Below, one piece after another: positions 4,167-54,268 of a stretch of 64,000 nt of DNA (positions within the stretch are counted from its first letter, which is position 1; the number at the start of each line of letters is the position of its first letter). The translations under genes were made by a program, and so were the position numbers. The stretch covers positions 64,001 through 128,000 of the forward strand of contig CM000433.1 in assembly GCA_000165345.1 (NCBI GenBank). Reading direction: 5' to 3'. The notes beneath the pieces are model-generated. The model saw only the letters and a list, made by a program, of their open reading frames with translations. It had not been told where the DNA came from and did no database searches.

Positions 4167-6125
4167 TTAAATTTCTTCTTCAAATTTATATCTGAAAAAT
4201 TCATGTCTTAGAGCCATTTCAGGGGTAGGTCTTAAATTAGGATCTGGTCTCAAAATATATCTAATAAATTTGGCCAACATAATATGTTTTTTATGTACTA
4301 AATTCTCAAGAGGTCTACAGTCATTAACTCTTTTAATAGAAGTATTGCTTGAACTTCCTTCTGGCCAATTTAAAATATATTTATACTCTTCACTAGGGTG
4401 GTGGTTATTATTATTACTGATTTTTAATCTATTAACATATTTCTTCCCAGATTTACTACTATTATAAGCTTTTTTAAGCATGTAATCAGGAAATGGTTCA
4501 ATAATCTTTTCAATCATAGCTAAATGTTCCATATGTTCATGTGTTTTAAATAGTAATACACCTGTATAAAGTTCCATTAGAATACAACCAAAACCCCACA
4601 TATCACTAGACATATCCCATCCTAAATCTAAAATTACTTCAGGAGCTCTATATTGTCTTGTATTAATAACACTACCATGATAATCATGTTCATAAGTTGC
4701 TGCACCAAAATCAATCAATCTAATTTCAGGACGTACTGGTCTTCTAATTAATGCACCAGGATGTCTTGGAGCATTTACCCATATATAATTATTATCAGTA
4801 AATAATATATTCTCAAGTTTAAGATCAGTATGAGTTAATTTCATCTTTCTTAAAAAAGATAAAGCTAATAAAAATTGTTCTGAAATATTCTGAATATCAG
4901 CAAGAAAGAAACCTCTTGAACAATTACCATCTAAAAAATCAAATAAACTTGGTCCAAGTTTTTCAAATACAAGACACATATTTGAGTTATTAAATAAAAA
5001 TGCATTATATAACATAACGCAATATGAATATTCACCAAATTTATCTTCCATATTAATATCTCTAAGAATTTCTGCTTCAATTTTTGCTGCTGATGTATAT
5101 CTTTGTACATCTCTTATTACCTTTATTGCAACTTTTCTTTTTCTTTTTAAATCTTCACATTCAAAAACTCTTCCAAAAGTACCTTCTCCTATAATATCTA
5201 ATATACGATATCTTGAAGTTAAATATTGTCCAACATACCATTGAAAATGTTCTATTTCATCTGAATTTGTATTATTATTATTATTATTATTATTATGATA
5301 ATTATTATTCATATTATTATTATTACTATTATTATTATTATTGTTGTTATTTCTATTACGATATTCTCTAGATAATTCATTATCTTGAGAATAATCTAAT
5401 GAATCATCTGAATATCTAACTTTTTTATTAGAATTATTATAATATGTAATTGAAGAACCACGAGAATCATATGATCTATATTCATTAATTCCTATATCTT
5501 TATATTTTAACATTCCACTTGCACTACTTAATCCTCTTCTTTTCTTAATTTCATTATTATCATAATACTTATGATAATAATTACTATTAATATTATTATT
5601 AACATTTTTACTATGTAACATAATATTATATCCAGGTTTTAATCCATAATTTGTTATATCATGATTGTTATCATTATTATTATCACAATTATTAGTATTT
5701 ATATTCATATTCATATTTATATTGTTATTATTATTTCCATAATATCTTTTTTGATAGTAACTATTACCATCATTACTATAATTTATATTGTCTAATTGTT
5801 TTTCTGTTGATGCAACATATAGTGTTTCATATTCATACTCTGGCATTAAATTTATTCTAGAAGTATTAATACCAGAATTTGAATTATTAATAATATTTCT
5901 ATTTCCAACATATGTATTGTTTATTTCATTCTTTCTATGTTTAATTCCTGTTCTTCTACTTTCATAATAAGTTCTTTTTCTATTATTTTGTGGTAAATCT
6001 ACATAATCATCTACATAATAGCTATTCATATATTCATTACCACTCATATTTCTGGATATTTCATTATATTTATTATTAACATTAATATAGTTTAATCCAT
6101 TTCTGAATTTTGTTCTTTGGTCCAT
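4167..6125 (-). CDS. clkA: LAMMER/CLK-family dual-specificity protein kinase (CMGC group)
   Basis: 652-aa ORF. Kinase subdomains are GEGTFGRV, VAIK, HTDLKLENIL, DFG, RAPE and DMWGFGCIL. The LAMMER signature EHLAMIEKIIEPFP lies in subdomain X. There is a long Asn-rich N-terminal extension. The symbol is the D. discoideum ortholog name and is tentative because the species is not certain. Confidence 0.85.
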   Translation of the reverse strand: MDQRTKFRNGLNYINVNNKYNEISRNMSGNEYMNSYYVDDYVDLPQNNRKRTYYESRRTGIKHRKNEINNTYVGNRNIINNSNSGINTSRINLMPEYEYETLYVASTEKQLDNINYSNDGNSYYQKRYYGNNNNNINMNMNINTNNCDNNNDNNHDITNYGLKPGYNIMLHSKNVNNNINSNYYHKYYDNNEIKKRRGLSSASGMLKYKDIGINEYRSYDSRGSSITYYNNSNKKVRYSDDSLDYSQDNELSREYRNRNNNNNNNNSNNNNMNNNYHNNNNNNNNTNSDEIEHFQWYVGQYLTSRYRILDIIGEGTFGRVFECEDLKRKRKVAIKVIRDVQRYTSAAKIEAEILRDINMEDKFGEYSYCVMLYNAFLFNNSNMCLVFEKLGPSLFDFLDGNCSRGFFLADIQNISEQFLLALSFLRKMKLTHTDLKLENILFTDNNYIWVNAPRHPGALIRRPVRPEIRLIDFGAATYEHDYHGSVINTRQYRAPEVILDLGWDMSSDMWGFGCILMELYTGVLLFKTHEHMEHLAMIEKIIEPFPDYMLKKAYNSSKSGKKYVNRLKISNNNNHHPSEEYKYILNWPEGSSSNTSIKRVNDCRPLENLVHKKHIMLAKFIRYILRPDPNLRPTPEMALRHEFFRYKFEEEI

Positions 6126-6840: not shown

Positions 6841-7000
6841 TATAAATATAATACAATATATTATATATTGTAAATAGTATATTTCTATATATATAATTTT
6901 ACATTATATAATTTTATATTGTATTATTATATATTGTATTATTATATATTGTATTATTTTATATTGTATTATTTTATATTATATTATTTTATATTATATT
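6841..7000. repeat. AT-rich tandem repeat, (tatattgtattatta)n-like
   Basis: Direct repetition of the attgtattattatat / attttatattgtatt units is visible in the sequence, in the spacer between the kinase promoter and the 3' end of the upstream gene. Confidence 0.6.
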
Positions 7001-7187
7001 ACATAAATGTATATATGTATTTTAAATAGATTTTTTAATTGATAGATTAATTAGTGTGATTTAATTATTTGAATGTATAGTAAATAGGATGAAAAAAGAG
7101 AGGAATTGATAAAGCTTTATATTCTTTCATAAACTTTTATACAGAATAATGATATGGTTGCTATTCGACTTGTATTATTATTATTAT

Positions 7188-45547: not shown

Positions 45548-49846
<4,299 letters not shown>

Positions 49847-49888: not shown

Positions 49889-50906
49889 CTAGTTTTTATT
49901 AAACATTCTTTTATATTTATCAGTATTGGAATTCTTATATTTACTTTCCATTAAAACAATATCATTTCTTAGTTTAATAAAGGCTGATTTGTCATCAATT
50001 TGGTTGGATAAAACTTTATCAATAATTTCTATAGCTTTATTAAATTCATAAATATTTATATAAGCTTGTGAAAGTCTATATAATGCCTTTAAAGTTATAA
50101 ATAAGAATTTATTGGGAATTTATTTAAAAAGTAAATAATTATAAAATAAGGGTATAATGGAAAATATATTATAAGTTTATACTTACTTTAATATTATTAG
50201 GGTCATTTTTTAGTACATTATTACAATGAAGCATAGCCATATTAAATTCCTATATTTATAAACTTTTATTATATGAATATATGGAATAAATGAATAAATA
50301 AACTTACATTAATTTTTAGAAAGCATGCAGACAAATTGAGATTAATACGTGTAATAAGTTGGTTATATTCTTCCTCTAGATTCTTGTTTTCAGGAAAAGT
50401 ATAATCTACATAAATGAGTGCATTCTTGTACTCCAATATTGCTTCTTCAATTTTATTATCTTTGTATTTAATATTTCCTTCCTAAAAGTTAAAAAAGTTA
50501 TTATTATTATTGGTATTAAATATTGGCAAATTATATTATTAAATTTGTAAAAAAAAAGAAGAAATGAATAATAACTTCTAGAGAATGAATTTGGATAATC
50601 TTGTGATTTAGAATAAATGAAATAAGAAGATTTGTCATTATTTCTTTCTATTGATAATATTAATGGAAAGTGGGGAAGAAAGAGGAGAAAGAAAAAACAA
50701 AATAGATGGGAGGAAGAAACAAATCAACTTACATCACAAAATAGTCTGATAGCTTTTAGCTTATCAGTTGTAGATCTTTCATATAATTCTCTTTCTTTAC
50801 TTCTATCGTGGCTACATCCTTGATTTTTCTTTATTAAATCATTATATTTGTCATAATTATCTAAAATTTTCTGGCAAAACTCGTACTCACTCCTTGTTGT
50901 CTCCAT
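49889..50906 (-). CDS. Four-exon gene encoding a small (about 200 aa) TPR-repeat protein (FKBP-C-terminal / TTC9-like TPR arrangement)
   Basis: Exon 1 is 50733-50906 (MET...AIRLFCD; GTAAGT donor at 50732-50727). Exon 2 is 50308-50481 (EGNIKYKDNKIEEAILEYKNAL...NLNLSACFLKIN; GTAAGT donor at 50307-50302). Exon 3 is 50187-50249 (EFNMAMLHCNNVLKNDPNNIK; GTAAGT donor at 50186-50181). Exon 4 is about 49889-50087 (ALYRLSQAYINIYEFNKAIEIIDKVL...NKN*). All junctions are phase 0 with TTTTAG / ATATAG / TTTAAAG acceptors. The final-exon boundary is accurate to plus or minus 1-2 nt. Confidence 0.6.
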
Positions 50907-50967
50907 TTATACTATTTGCAAAAAAAATATATAGTTATTGTGAGTTTTCTTAAAATATTACAGATTA

Positions 50968-50987
50968 ACACGTATGGCGGGAACATG
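50968..50987. repeat. Left copy of a 20-bp inverted repeat ACACGTATGGCGGGAACATG
   Basis: 19/20 identical to the reverse complement of 52708-52727. It lies 62 bp upstream of the TPR gene ATG. Confidence 0.7.
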
Positions 50988-51133
50988 CTTTTATAAAAAT
51001 AAATATTTTTCTTAGAAAAAAATATAAGAGAATAAAGTAAATCAAGCATTGGAAATACACATATCAATACTTTATTATGCTAGAAAATCTATAATTTTAG
51101 TAACTAACAACAAATTAGAATTGGAAGAAAACG

Positions 51134-51172
51134 ATGTATGTATGTATGTATGTATGTATATATATATATAGA
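51134..51172. repeat. (ATGT)6-(TA)7 compound microsatellite
   Basis: gtatgtatgtatgtatgtatgtatatatatatatag. Confidence 0.85.
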
Positions 51173-51515: not shown

Positions 51516-52034
51516 TTATCCATACAATGGAGAAACCATACTTTCTAATTTGCCCTTACTTTCATTGTATTTAGTGACAAATTGTTCAGGAATTGCAAGT
51601 TCTTTCCAGTCACCTTCTTCTTCTCCTGGAAAGAGTAAATTCATTTCACTTGATTTACTGCTGTAAACCTCAACATTCTTTCCTTCTTTGGATGTGTAGA
51701 TATTAACTTTATTTGATTTATCAAGAGAAATAGTTGGAACAATGCCTGTCATTTGTAATTTAATATCATCACAATTAACAATTTCTATGGAAGAAATTAC
51801 ACCATTTACTAGAAAGATACATCCAACACAATTTTCAATAAAAATACTGTTGACTTTTTGTTCAACAATAATTCTGCTATTTTGAGAGCATCTAACTGAA
51901 ACCTTGTTTTTAATACTTCCTTCTGATAATGTAATAGGATCAGCGCAATTTACATGATTTTCTACAAGATATGTATCCTTTTGTAATTCCACCTTTGGAC
52001 TACCATTTGTAACTACTTGTCTTGCTGCTTTCAT
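51516..52034 (-). CDS. Stand-alone CAP C-terminal (CARP / beta-helix) domain protein, homologous to the actin-binding C-terminal domain of cyclase-associated protein
   Basis: 172 aa from the ATG at 52034. KVELQKDTYLVENHVN...RIIVEQKVNSIFIENCVGCIFLVNGVISSIEIVNCDDIKLQMTGIVPTISLDKSNKVNIYTSKEGKNVEVYSSKSSEMNLLFPGEEEGDWKELAIPEQFVTKYN. It aligns along its whole length with the human CAP1 C-terminal domain (…WRVENQENVSNLVIEDTELKQ...[62 protein letters not shown]), from memory. No N-terminal helical, Pro-rich or WH2 portion lies within about 740 bp of AT-rich upstream DNA. GGT/GGC-rich codon usage. Confidence 0.7.
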   Translation of the reverse strand: MKAARQVVTNGSPKVELQKDTYLVENHVNCADPITLSEGSIKNKVSVRCSQNSRIIVEQKVNSIFIENCVGCIFLVNGVISSIEIVNCDDIKLQMTGIVPTISLDKSNKVNIYTSKEGKNVEVYSSKSSEMNLLFPGEEEGDWKELAIPEQFVTKYNESKGKLESMVSPLYG

Positions 52035-52707
52035 TTTCTTTTCTTTTTTCAAATAAATTTGCGATTTTCAAAATAACTATTTTAAAGTAATTCAATTTAC
52101 ATATAAATATAAGTATATATATTAGTTAATATAATAATTTAGAAAATTATTATTTACTAATAATTTAAGAAATAATGAAATTATATAATTATATAATTTT
52201 TTCAATTATAGGTTTTTTTTTGCATGCATTTAGATATTAAATATTTTATTCATTTAATACTTTATGAATATCCAAGTGGATTTTTTTTTTTTTTTTATAA
52301 ATAATTAATAATTTTTGGATATTCTTATAATCCCTAACTATTTTAATAATTGTTTTCTGGTTTTTTAAATTTCTATTAAGAAAATAAAACTTTACGTATA
52401 ATTTCAAAATTTGATAGATCTTTCACTTTAATTCAATCCAATTGCATGTAATTCGAATCTGAGATTTTAATACTTTCAAATTTTATCAGATTTGGGTTTT
52501 TCCCGCCAAAACAAAATGATATTAATTATATTAAAATAAGAGAAGAATAAGTAGAATTAGAAATTAGGAATAGAGGTTTAGGAATAGAGAGAAGAAAATA
52601 AAGAATAAAAAATGAGGATACATTTAAAAAAAATGAGAAATAAAATGTAAAAAGAGTTAATAAGATATTGATAATTATTTTAACAAAAAAATTGACATTA
52701 AAAAATA

Positions 52708-52727
52708 CATGTTACCGCCATACGTGT
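52708..52727. repeat. Right copy (inverted) of the 20-bp repeat: CATGTTACCGCCATACGTGT
   Basis: Reverse complement is ACACGTATGGCGGTAACATG. It lies 63 bp 3' of the RING gene stop and about 675 bp upstream of the CAP-C gene ATG. Confidence 0.7.
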
Positions 52728-52789
52728 ATTTATGAATTATATTAAATATGAAAGGGGGGGGGGAAATAGAGAACAAAAAAGAGTCAAAT

Positions 52790-53746
<957 letters not shown>

Positions 53747-54256
53747 TAAAATTTGTAAAATTACCGTATAGTTTACTATTTACCTTTATTATTATTAATT
53801 TAATCTTAAATAGTGTGTTTTTACTCCTTAAACACAAATATTTATATACATATATATTTATATATATATATATATATATAAATATATGTATATTGCTTTT
53901 ATTAATAATTTAATGTTAATTCATTTAATCCCAGAGATAACTAGTTATTTACTTTATCTTGTTAAAAATATGACCCAAAATATTTTTATAATATTACCAT
54001 GCAATTTATATTCACATATTTATCTTATATAAGCTAATCATTTATTAGAAAAGTATTGATAATATATAATAAATTATTACTTTTATATATGAACATAAAT
54101 TTCTATATCATATAGTATAGTATTCTATACAAATACAATAAACAATTTAATGAATAATTTTCATTCAATTTCATTACAAGTAATAATTCATAGTCTATTC
54201 TTCCATAAATCCTGTTAAAATTCAATTTTGAATTTATTGCACATTTACCGCCACTT

Positions 54257-54268
54257 TATGGCGCCACA
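54257..54268. promoter_or_regulatory. E2F-like TATGGCGCCACA flanked by CCACTT/AAGTGG inverted repeat and a TTTACCGCCAC element
   Basis: The sequence acatttaccgccactttatggcgccacattcaagtgg lies about 165 bp upstream of the small plus-strand gene at 54428 and about 515 bp upstream of the RING gene ATG. Confidence 0.35.

What the first reader, a model, noticed from the sequence alone, without database searches (positions are those of the whole stretch)
51516..52034. CAP (cyclase-associated protein) C-terminal CARP domain encoded as an independent 172-aa gene
The ORF aligns end-to-end with the actin-monomer-binding beta-helix CARP domain that normally forms the C-terminus of about 460-aa CAP/Srv2 proteins. 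Here there is no helical-folded domain, poly-Pro or WH2 region on the same strand within about 740 bp of AT-rich upstream sequence. The next upstream ORF is an unrelated RING gene. Codon usage (GGT/GGC, AAG) looks like a well-expressed gene. This could be a CAP paralog reduced to the dimerising, actin-binding module, or a captured fragment (see the inverted-repeat finding).
Basis: partly seen in the sequence, partly recalled or inferred. Interest (0 to 1): 0.5.

Follow-up and report, generated by a model that had tools for sequence, protein, structure and literature searches.

The report
Known Cryptosporidium short CAP gene
This ORF is the already annotated, crystallised and biochemically studied actin-monomer-binding CAP protein of Cryptosporidium parvum (cgd5_440, PDB 2B0R). 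Like every apicomplexan CAP it consists only of the C-terminal CARP domain, so the finding is real but ordinary.

Summary
Window 51516-52034 (minus strand) encodes a 172-aa protein that is a complete CAP_C/CARP domain (Pfam E=6.7e-46, residues 12-167) and nothing else.

- **Identity.** The window is C. parvum chromosome 5 (99.96% identical to CP044418.1). The protein matches the crystallised C. parvum CAP (PDB 2B0R) at 172 of 172 residues and is annotated as cgd5_440.
- **Known family trait.** Papers state that all Apicomplexa have only this truncated CARP-only CAP. C. parvum CAP forms dimers, sequesters G-actin and rescues a Plasmodium berghei CAP knockout.
- **Stable gene.** 172-aa orthologues occur in at least eight other Cryptosporidium species. 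The RING-CAP-TPR gene order is kept in C. felis and chipmunk genotype I. An in-frame stop lies 2-12 codons upstream of the conserved start Met in all three species.
- **Inverted repeat.** The flanking repeat is two copies of an extended E2F-like promoter site (GGCGGGAA), a published and abundant C. parvum upstream motif. It is not a set of transposon ends.
- **Codon bias.** The claimed bias is weak (GC3 0.185 vs 0.146, p=0.09).

Verdict: already known, low interest.

The parts
51516..52034 (-). Complete single-exon coding sequence of C. parvum cyclase-associated protein (C-CAP, cgd5_440), 172 aa. The stop codon is at 51516-51518 and the start ATG at 52032-52034.
   Evidence: ORF. Pfam CAP_C E=6.7e-46. 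172/172 identity to PDB 2B0R residues 31-202. The exact sequence is annotated as adenylate cyclase-associated CAP in C. parvum.
52035..52789 (-). Upstream intergenic region (promoter and 5' UTR) of the CAP gene. It is 755 bp long with 18.7% GC and has no open frame that could extend the protein.
   Evidence: Each frame has 16-22 stops, and an in-frame stop lies 12 codons upstream of Met1. The same holds in C. felis and chipmunk genotype I.
52500..52507 (-). E2F-like site GGCGGGAA (context TTTTGGCGGGAAAAA), on the CAP sense strand, 466 bp upstream of the CAP ATG.
   Evidence: It matches published C. parvum motif 4, TTTGGCGGGAAV. The site sits at a similar position in chipmunk genotype I (L008 5577).
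52708..52727 (-). Right arm core of the inverted repeat, ACACGTATGGCGGTAACATG. It is an extended E2F-like site 674 bp upstream of the CAP ATG and 63 bp downstream of the RING gene stop.
   Evidence: It is conserved with a 1-nt insertion in chipmunk genotype I (L008 about 5386-5406).
50968..50987 (+). Left arm core of the inverted repeat, ACACGTATGGCGGGAACATG. It lies 62 bp upstream of the ATG (50906) of the next gene, a TPR-like protein on the minus strand, and 529 bp downstream of the CAP stop. It most likely belongs to that gene's promoter rather than to CAP.
   Evidence: It is conserved in chipmunk genotype I at L008 6997-7016.

Best explanation
The ORF is the single, canonical cyclase-associated protein gene of Cryptosporidium parvum (C-CAP, cgd5_440) on chromosome 5. 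It is an intron-less gene encoding only the CARP beta-helix domain. Published work on this very protein and its Plasmodium and Toxoplasma orthologues gives the mechanism. The protein forms a homodimer, and each dimer binds ADP-G-actin monomers. It sequesters them and, as shown for the P. falciparum orthologue, catalyses ADP-to-ATP exchange, which feeds the parasite's small, fast-turning-over actin pool. Loss of the N-terminal helical-folded domain, the proline-rich region and the WH2 motif is an ancestral trait of Apicomplexa, not a local event at this locus. Shown here: gene identity, domain content, absence of upstream coding sequence, synteny, and the nature of the flanking repeat. Taken from the literature: dimerisation, G-actin sequestration, nucleotide exchange, and rescue of the P. 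berghei knockout. Inferred: transcription is driven from the 755-bp upstream region carrying two E2F-like sites.
For: Pfam CAP_C matches residues 12-167 at E=6.7e-46. The protein is 100% identical over all 172 residues to PDB 2B0R, and shows E about 1e-24 to the mouse and human CAP1 CARP domains 6FM2 and 1K8F. The window is 99.96% identical to C. parvum CP044418.1:126632-147150. The exact protein is named adenylate cyclase-associated CAP in C. parvum. 172-aa orthologues exist in C. hominis, meleagridis, canis, ubiquitum, tyzzeri, felis and chipmunk genotype I. Gene order RING-CAP-TPR-large Asn-rich protein is conserved in C. felis and chipmunk genotype I. In-frame stops lie 2-12 codons upstream of the conserved Met1 in three species. 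No CAP_N-bearing gene lies within 10 kb on either side. Literature: Apicomplexa possess a truncated CAP retaining only the CARP domain, and CpCAP dimerises, sequesters G-actin and complements the PbCAP knockout (Hunt 2019, PMC6785269, citing Hliscs 2010). The FEBS J 2025 review lists Q5CS32 and 2B0R. Woo 2015 states that apicomplexans lack CAP_N altogether. The name cgd5_440 is linked to 'Adenylate cyclase-associated CAP', and the transcript was measured in vitro with a peak at 12 h. The CARP-dimer/ADP-actin mechanism comes from Kotila 2018.
Against: Nothing in the data contradicts this. There are four limits. I could not scan the whole C. parvum genome myself for a second, full-length CAP, so the single-copy statement rests on the literature. 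I could not read the primary paper (Hliscs 2010), which is not held, and know it only through papers that cite it. No transcript data were examined directly. WH2-dependent steps of the mammalian exchange cycle cannot apply here, so the exact exchange mechanism may differ from mammalian CAP1.
Confidence: 0.97

Rival explanations
1. It is a second, reduced CAP paralogue that coexists with a canonical full-length CAP/Srv2 gene elsewhere in the genome.
For: Within the window alone this cannot be excluded. Some relatives outside Apicomplexa, such as Chromera, keep a two-domain CAP.
Against: Three independent papers state that apicomplexans have only the truncated CAP and lack CAP_N altogether. The homology search returned a single 172-aa orthologue per Cryptosporidium species and no longer Cryptosporidium protein.
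Confidence: 0.015
2. It is a gene fragment captured or mobilised by an element whose ends are the flanking inverted repeat (50950-51020 and 52675-52745).
For: A 71-nt, 73%-complementary inverted repeat with a 19/20 core brackets the gene. That core is found nowhere else in the window, and none is expected by chance.
Against: The core contains GGCGG(G/T)AA, the published E2F-like upstream motif of C. parvum. GGCGGGAA occurs 7 times in the window against 0.05 expected, mostly beside other gene starts. Each arm lies in the 5' flank of a minus-strand gene, CAP and the TPR gene. The CAP gene sits at the same syntenic position in C. felis, where the extended repeat is absent but E2F-like sites remain. 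No transposase was found and no other copies exist. The truncated form is phylum-wide, so its origin predates any local event.
Confidence: 0.005
3. The 172-aa ORF is only the last exon of a longer gene whose upstream exons, encoding N-terminal CAP domains, were missed.
For: Some C. parvum genes have introns. The neighbouring TPR gene is modelled with several exons in two assemblies.
Against: The upstream 755 bp is full of stops in all frames and is followed directly by the 3' end of a RING gene. An in-frame stop lies 2-12 codons before a conserved Met1 in three species, and protein similarity starts exactly at that Met. The 172-aa protein alone was crystallised as a folded dimer and, per the literature, is functional in vivo in P. 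berghei. No neighbouring gene within 10 kb carries CAP_N.
Confidence: 0.01

Closest known systems
Cryptosporidium parvum C-CAP (cgd5_440; UniProt Q5CS32; PDB 2B0R)
   Same: It is identical at 172 of 172 residues and sits at the same chromosomal locus. This is that gene.
   Different: Nothing differs. An older annotation, XP_626004.1, is a 183-aa 'partial' model that begins 11 codons upstream of the real Met.
Apicomplexan truncated CAPs (Plasmodium falciparum CAP Q8I288, P. berghei C-CAP, Toxoplasma gondii CAP)
   Same: They share the CARP-only architecture, dimerisation and G-actin binding. CpCAP functionally replaces PbCAP.
   Different: T. gondii, Neospora and Hammondia CAPs carry an extra N-terminal extension with palmitoylation sites and two translational starts. 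The Cryptosporidium protein has only 11 residues before the domain. Sequestration was shown for CpCAP and nucleotide exchange for PfCAP.
Canonical CAP/Srv2 (human/mouse CAP1, yeast Srv2; PDB 1K8F, 6FM2, 1K4Z)
   Same: The C-terminal CARP beta-helix domain is homologous over its full length, with E about 1e-24 to 1e-18. Conserved blocks include VPTIS, SSEMN and PEQF.
   Different: Canonical CAPs are about 475-526 aa. They have an N-terminal oligomerisation and helical-folded domain that promotes cofilin-mediated severing, two proline-rich regions and a WH2 motif. All of these are absent here.
TBCC / RP2 (other CARP-domain proteins)
   Same: They share the beta-helix repeat. There is a weak Pfam TBCC match of 27.5 bits over residues 43-114.
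   Different: The TBCC match covers only profile positions 2-71 of 120 and is about 130 bits weaker than CAP_C. TBCC and RP2 act on tubulin and Arl3, not on actin.

Membership tests
CAP/Srv2 family (defined by the CAP_C / CARP domain, Pfam PF08603) | Full-length match to the CAP_C profile above the curated cut-off | tested here: met
   156.2 bits against a cut-off of 23.8. Residues 12-167 align to profile positions 2-154 of 157.
CAP/Srv2 family (defined by the CAP_C / CARP domain, Pfam PF08603) | Right-handed beta-helix fold forming a homodimer | tested here: met
   The sequence is 100% identical to the solved structure 2B0R, which has two chains in the entry. Dimer formation of CpCAP is reported in the literature.
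CAP/Srv2 family (defined by the CAP_C / CARP domain, Pfam PF08603) | Binds actin monomers, by sequestration and/or nucleotide exchange | not testable with these tools
   Reported experimentally for this protein (G-actin sequestration) and for PfCAP (nucleotide exchange), in Hliscs 2010 and Makkonen 2013 as cited in PMC6785269 and PMC12713339.
Canonical full-length CAP architecture (HFD/CAP_N, poly-Pro, WH2, CARP) | N-terminal helical-folded domain, proline-rich region and WH2 motif on the same polypeptide | tested here: not met
   Only 11 residues precede the CARP domain and there is no CAP_N hit. Upstream stops are present in all frames. No CAP_N gene lies within 10 kb.
Apicomplexan truncated C-CAP | Protein of about 160-200 aa made of the CARP domain only, encoded by a stand-alone gene in an apicomplexan genome | tested here: met
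   The protein is 172 aa. The window is C. parvum chromosome 5. 172-aa orthologues exist in at least 8 other Cryptosporidium species.
Apicomplexan truncated C-CAP | Sole CAP gene of the genome | not tested
   A whole-genome search was not possible with these tools. The statement is made in the literature.
TBCC / RP2 CARP-domain proteins | Best and full-length match to the TBCC profile | tested here: not met
   The TBCC match is 27.5 bits and covers profile positions 2-71 of 120 only, against 156 bits for CAP_C.
Mobile element or captured fragment bounded by terminal inverted repeats | Repeat-bounded unit present in several copies, absent from orthologous sites, or carrying a transposase | tested here: not met
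   The core occurs only at these two sites in the window. The gene is syntenic in C. felis and chipmunk genotype I. The arms are E2F-like promoter sites. No transposase lies between the arms.

The most novel reading that the evidence does not exclude
The 20-nt core ACACGTATGGCGG(G/T)AACATG is present once in each orientation, in the 5' flanks of CAP and of the neighbouring TPR gene, and is conserved in chipmunk genotype I. It might be a specific composite regulatory element rather than two ordinary E2F-like sites. In that reading an E2F/DP site is fused to ACGT-core and CATG half-sites, and the element co-regulates the two adjacent genes.
Probability: 0.12. Interest if true: 0.15.

Novelty: already known. 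Interest (0 to 1): 0.04.

Why it matters
It adds little new. The gene, its crystal structure and its activity were published in 2010, and the CARP-only architecture is a textbook feature of apicomplexan actin regulation. That biology is of general interest because it shows the CARP domain alone is the minimal unit for CAP's action on actin monomers, but that point has already been made in the literature. The useful outcome here is negative: the 'paralogue' and 'captured fragment' ideas can be dropped, and the linked inverted-repeat finding is best read as a pair of E2F-like promoter sites.

Tried and rejected
1. I first guessed Plasmodium, from the AT-richness and Asn-rich proteins. This was rejected: the protein and DNA are C. 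parvum.

2. The captured-fragment or TIR idea was rejected on synteny, motif identity and motif abundance.

3. The missed-upstream-exon idea was rejected by stop codons in all frames, and by a conserved Met1 preceded by in-frame stops in three species.

4. The highly-expressed codon-bias idea is not supported statistically (p=0.09).

5. Attempts to read Hliscs 2010 (PMC2857035) and Makkonen 2013 (PMC3543048) failed because the papers are not held. Their content is cited second-hand.

6. Three tools were deliberately not used. Structure prediction and fold search were skipped because an experimental structure of the identical sequence exists. The representative-library search was skipped because the length distribution of CARP-only proteins would not change the verdict.

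Full report
**Observation.** The sequence at 51516-52034 is an open reading frame on the minus strand of 172 codons plus a stop.
- Its product matches Pfam CAP_C (PF08603) from residue 12 to 167, across profile positions 2-154 of 157, at 156 bits and E=6.7e-46.
- A much weaker, partial hit to the related TBCC beta-helix family (27.5 bits) is also present.
- Only 11 residues precede the domain, so there is no room for a helical-folded domain, a proline-rich region or a WH2 motif.
- The 755 bp between the start codon and the next upstream gene has 18.7% GC and 16-22 stops in every frame.
- That upstream gene (52790-53746, minus strand) is a C3HC4 RING-finger protein.

All descriptive parts of the finding are therefore confirmed. 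The codon-usage remark is the exception. GGT/GGC/GGA are 3/2/5 and AAA/AAG are 11/5. GC3 is 0.185 against 0.146 for the 20 other long ORFs of the window, and the one-sided binomial p is 0.09. This is at most a slight shift.

**What it is.** The protein is identical at 172 of 172 positions to residues 31-202 of PDB entry 2B0R, 'possible adenyl cyclase-associated protein' of Cryptosporidium parvum. The first 30 residues of that chain lie outside the match and I take them to be an expression tag.
- The CARP domains of mouse, human and yeast CAP follow at E=1e-24 to 1e-18.
- An exact-sequence look-up finds the protein on three chromosome-scale C. parvum assemblies.
- The window is 99.96% identical over 20.5 kb to CP044418.1:126632-147150, that is, C. 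parvum chromosome 5.
- Public annotations call the protein 'Adenylate cyclase-associated CAP' or 'putative adenyl cyclase-associated protein'.
- Papers give it the gene name cgd5_440. They report its transcript peaking at 12 h in vitro and list it in a table of a secretome and transcriptome study.

**Is the short form a local oddity?** It is not.
- Orthologues of exactly 172 aa are annotated in C. hominis, C. meleagridis, C. canis, C. ubiquitum, C. tyzzeri, C. felis and chipmunk genotype I.
- In C. felis (86% protein identity) and chipmunk genotype I (96%), the gene lies in the same order as here: Rpn13, several small genes, a 309-347-aa gene, CAP, a TPR-like gene, then a 1300-1400-aa protein.
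- In all three species an in-frame stop lies 2-12 codons upstream of a conserved Met1, and protein similarity begins exactly at that Met.
- None of the annotated neighbours within 10 kb carries a CAP_N domain.

The literature agrees.
[quoted passage not shown] 2019, PMC6785269, citing Hliscs et al. 2010).
- A 2025 review says apicomplexan CAPs 'contain only the C-terminal ... CARP beta-sheet domain' and lists Q5CS32 and 2B0R for C. parvum (PMC12713339).
- Woo et al. 2015 state that apicomplexans lack CAP_N altogether. They note the same for some stramenopile genes and for Vitrella, whereas Chromera keeps both domains (PMC4501334).

**How it works.** This part comes from the literature and was not tested here.
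- C. parvum CAP forms a dimer and sequesters G-actin.
- P. falciparum CAP catalyses ADP-to-ATP exchange on actin monomers.
- Knockout of P. berghei CAP blocks oocyst development in the mosquito, and C. parvum CAP rescues it.

The C. parvum protein keeps the conserved blocks VPTIS, SSEMN and PEQF and ends in Gly. It lacks the WH2 motif that mammalian CAP uses for ATP-actin hand-off, so that step must differ.

**The flanking inverted repeat.** The finding points to a separate inverted-repeat observation as possible evidence for capture. The repeat is real.
- The arms are 50950-51020 and 52675-52745, 71 nt long and 73% complementary.
- The 20-nt core is ACACGTATGGCGGGAACATG at 50968-50987 (+) and ACACGTATGGCGGTAACATG at 52708-52727 (-).
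- No further copy occurs in the window, and none is expected by chance.

The centre of the core is GGCGG(G/T)AA.
- GGCGGGAA occurs 7 times in the window against 0.05 expected. By my comparison with the ORF list, most sites lie between ORFs.
- Palindromic GGCGCC sites lie at nine further places, again mostly between ORFs.
[quoted passage not shown] 2013, PMC3734150).

The positions fit a promoter role.
- The right arm lies 674 bp upstream of the CAP ATG.
- A further canonical site (TTTTGGCGGGAAAAA, 52500-52507) lies 466 bp upstream of the CAP ATG.
- The left arm lies 62 bp upstream of the ATG of the next minus-strand gene, a TPR-like protein.
- All three sites are conserved in chipmunk genotype I.
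- In C. felis the extended 20-mer is absent, but E2F-like sites remain in both intergenic regions.

There is no transposase, no second copy and no empty site. The repeat is best explained as two promoter elements in opposite orientation, not as the ends of a mobilised fragment.

**Comparison and membership.** The protein is a member of the CAP/Srv2 family through its CARP domain, by both sequence and solved structure. It fails the test for the canonical multi-domain architecture. It meets every testable criterion of the apicomplexan truncated C-CAP group. Single-copy status in the genome could not be tested with these tools and rests on the literature.

**Verdict.** Its unusual architecture has been a published feature of the whole phylum since 2010. 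Novelty: already known. Interest is very low. The one small open point is whether the extended 20-nt version of the E2F-like site shared by the CAP and TPR promoters is a distinct composite element.

Noticed in passing
window 50968-50987 (+) and 52708-52727 (-); L008 about 5386-5406 and 6997-7016: A 20-nt extended E2F-like site, ACACGTATGGCGG(G/T)AACATG, occurs once in each orientation in the 5' flanks of CAP and the adjacent TPR gene. It is conserved in chipmunk genotype I but not as a 20-mer in C. felis. The flanks (ACGT core, CATG) go beyond the published E2F-like motif.
   Followed up: partly
window-wide, e.g. 2814, 6805, 9272, 16501, 34966, 50976, 52500 (GGCGGGAA); 3973, 30109, 38010, 39281, 40490, 44475, 54260, 56994 (GGCGCC): E2F-like GC-rich motifs are strongly enriched: 7 GGCGGGAA against 0.05 expected. 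By my comparison with the ORF list they fall mostly between ORFs. Several GGCGCC sites are preceded by ACGTGT, GTGCGT or ATGTGT. At 54245-54265 a GGCGGTAA and a GGCGCC site lie side by side.
   Followed up: partly
window about 49890-50906 (-); L001 11129-11311 vs L002 11132-12149: The gene downstream of CAP is modelled inconsistently between C. parvum assemblies. It is a 60-aa single exon in GCA_015245375.1 and a 202-aa multi-exon TPR-like protein in GCA_031892065.1 and GCA_048859185.1. The short model is probably a truncated annotation.
   Followed up: no
window 45548-49846 (+): This 1432-aa protein is Asn-rich and low-complexity, with long poly-Asn runs, and has no Pfam hit on record. Its length differs between C. 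parvum assemblies (1432 vs 1441 aa), which suggests variation in repeat length.
   Followed up: no
window 52790-53746 (-): The 318-aa RING-finger protein upstream of CAP contains an uninterrupted run of more than 30 serines, encoded by a (GAA/GAG)n-type repeat on the plus strand at 53437-53535. The orthologues are 309 aa (chipmunk genotype I) and 347 aa (C. felis).
   Followed up: no
window 51134-51170: A (TATG)n-(TA)n microsatellite lies in the 3' flank of CAP, and a similar AT-rich tract lies at 53831-53900. These produce most of the other 'inverted repeats' reported for the region.
   Followed up: no
whole window: The window GC content is 22.9% (24% in the matching 20-kb loci). This is lower than the roughly 30% I recall for the C. 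parvum genome as a whole. The orthologous C. felis segment has 37% GC.
   Followed up: no
protein level: Three annotation or distribution oddities. The old RefSeq model XP_626004.1 is a 183-aa 'partial' protein described as having '2 CAP (CARP) domains'. Mauzy et al. [quoted passage not shown] Short CARP-only relatives also turn up outside Apicomplexa: a 181-aa Symbiodinium microadriaticum protein and 221-239-aa metagenome proteins.
   Followed up: no
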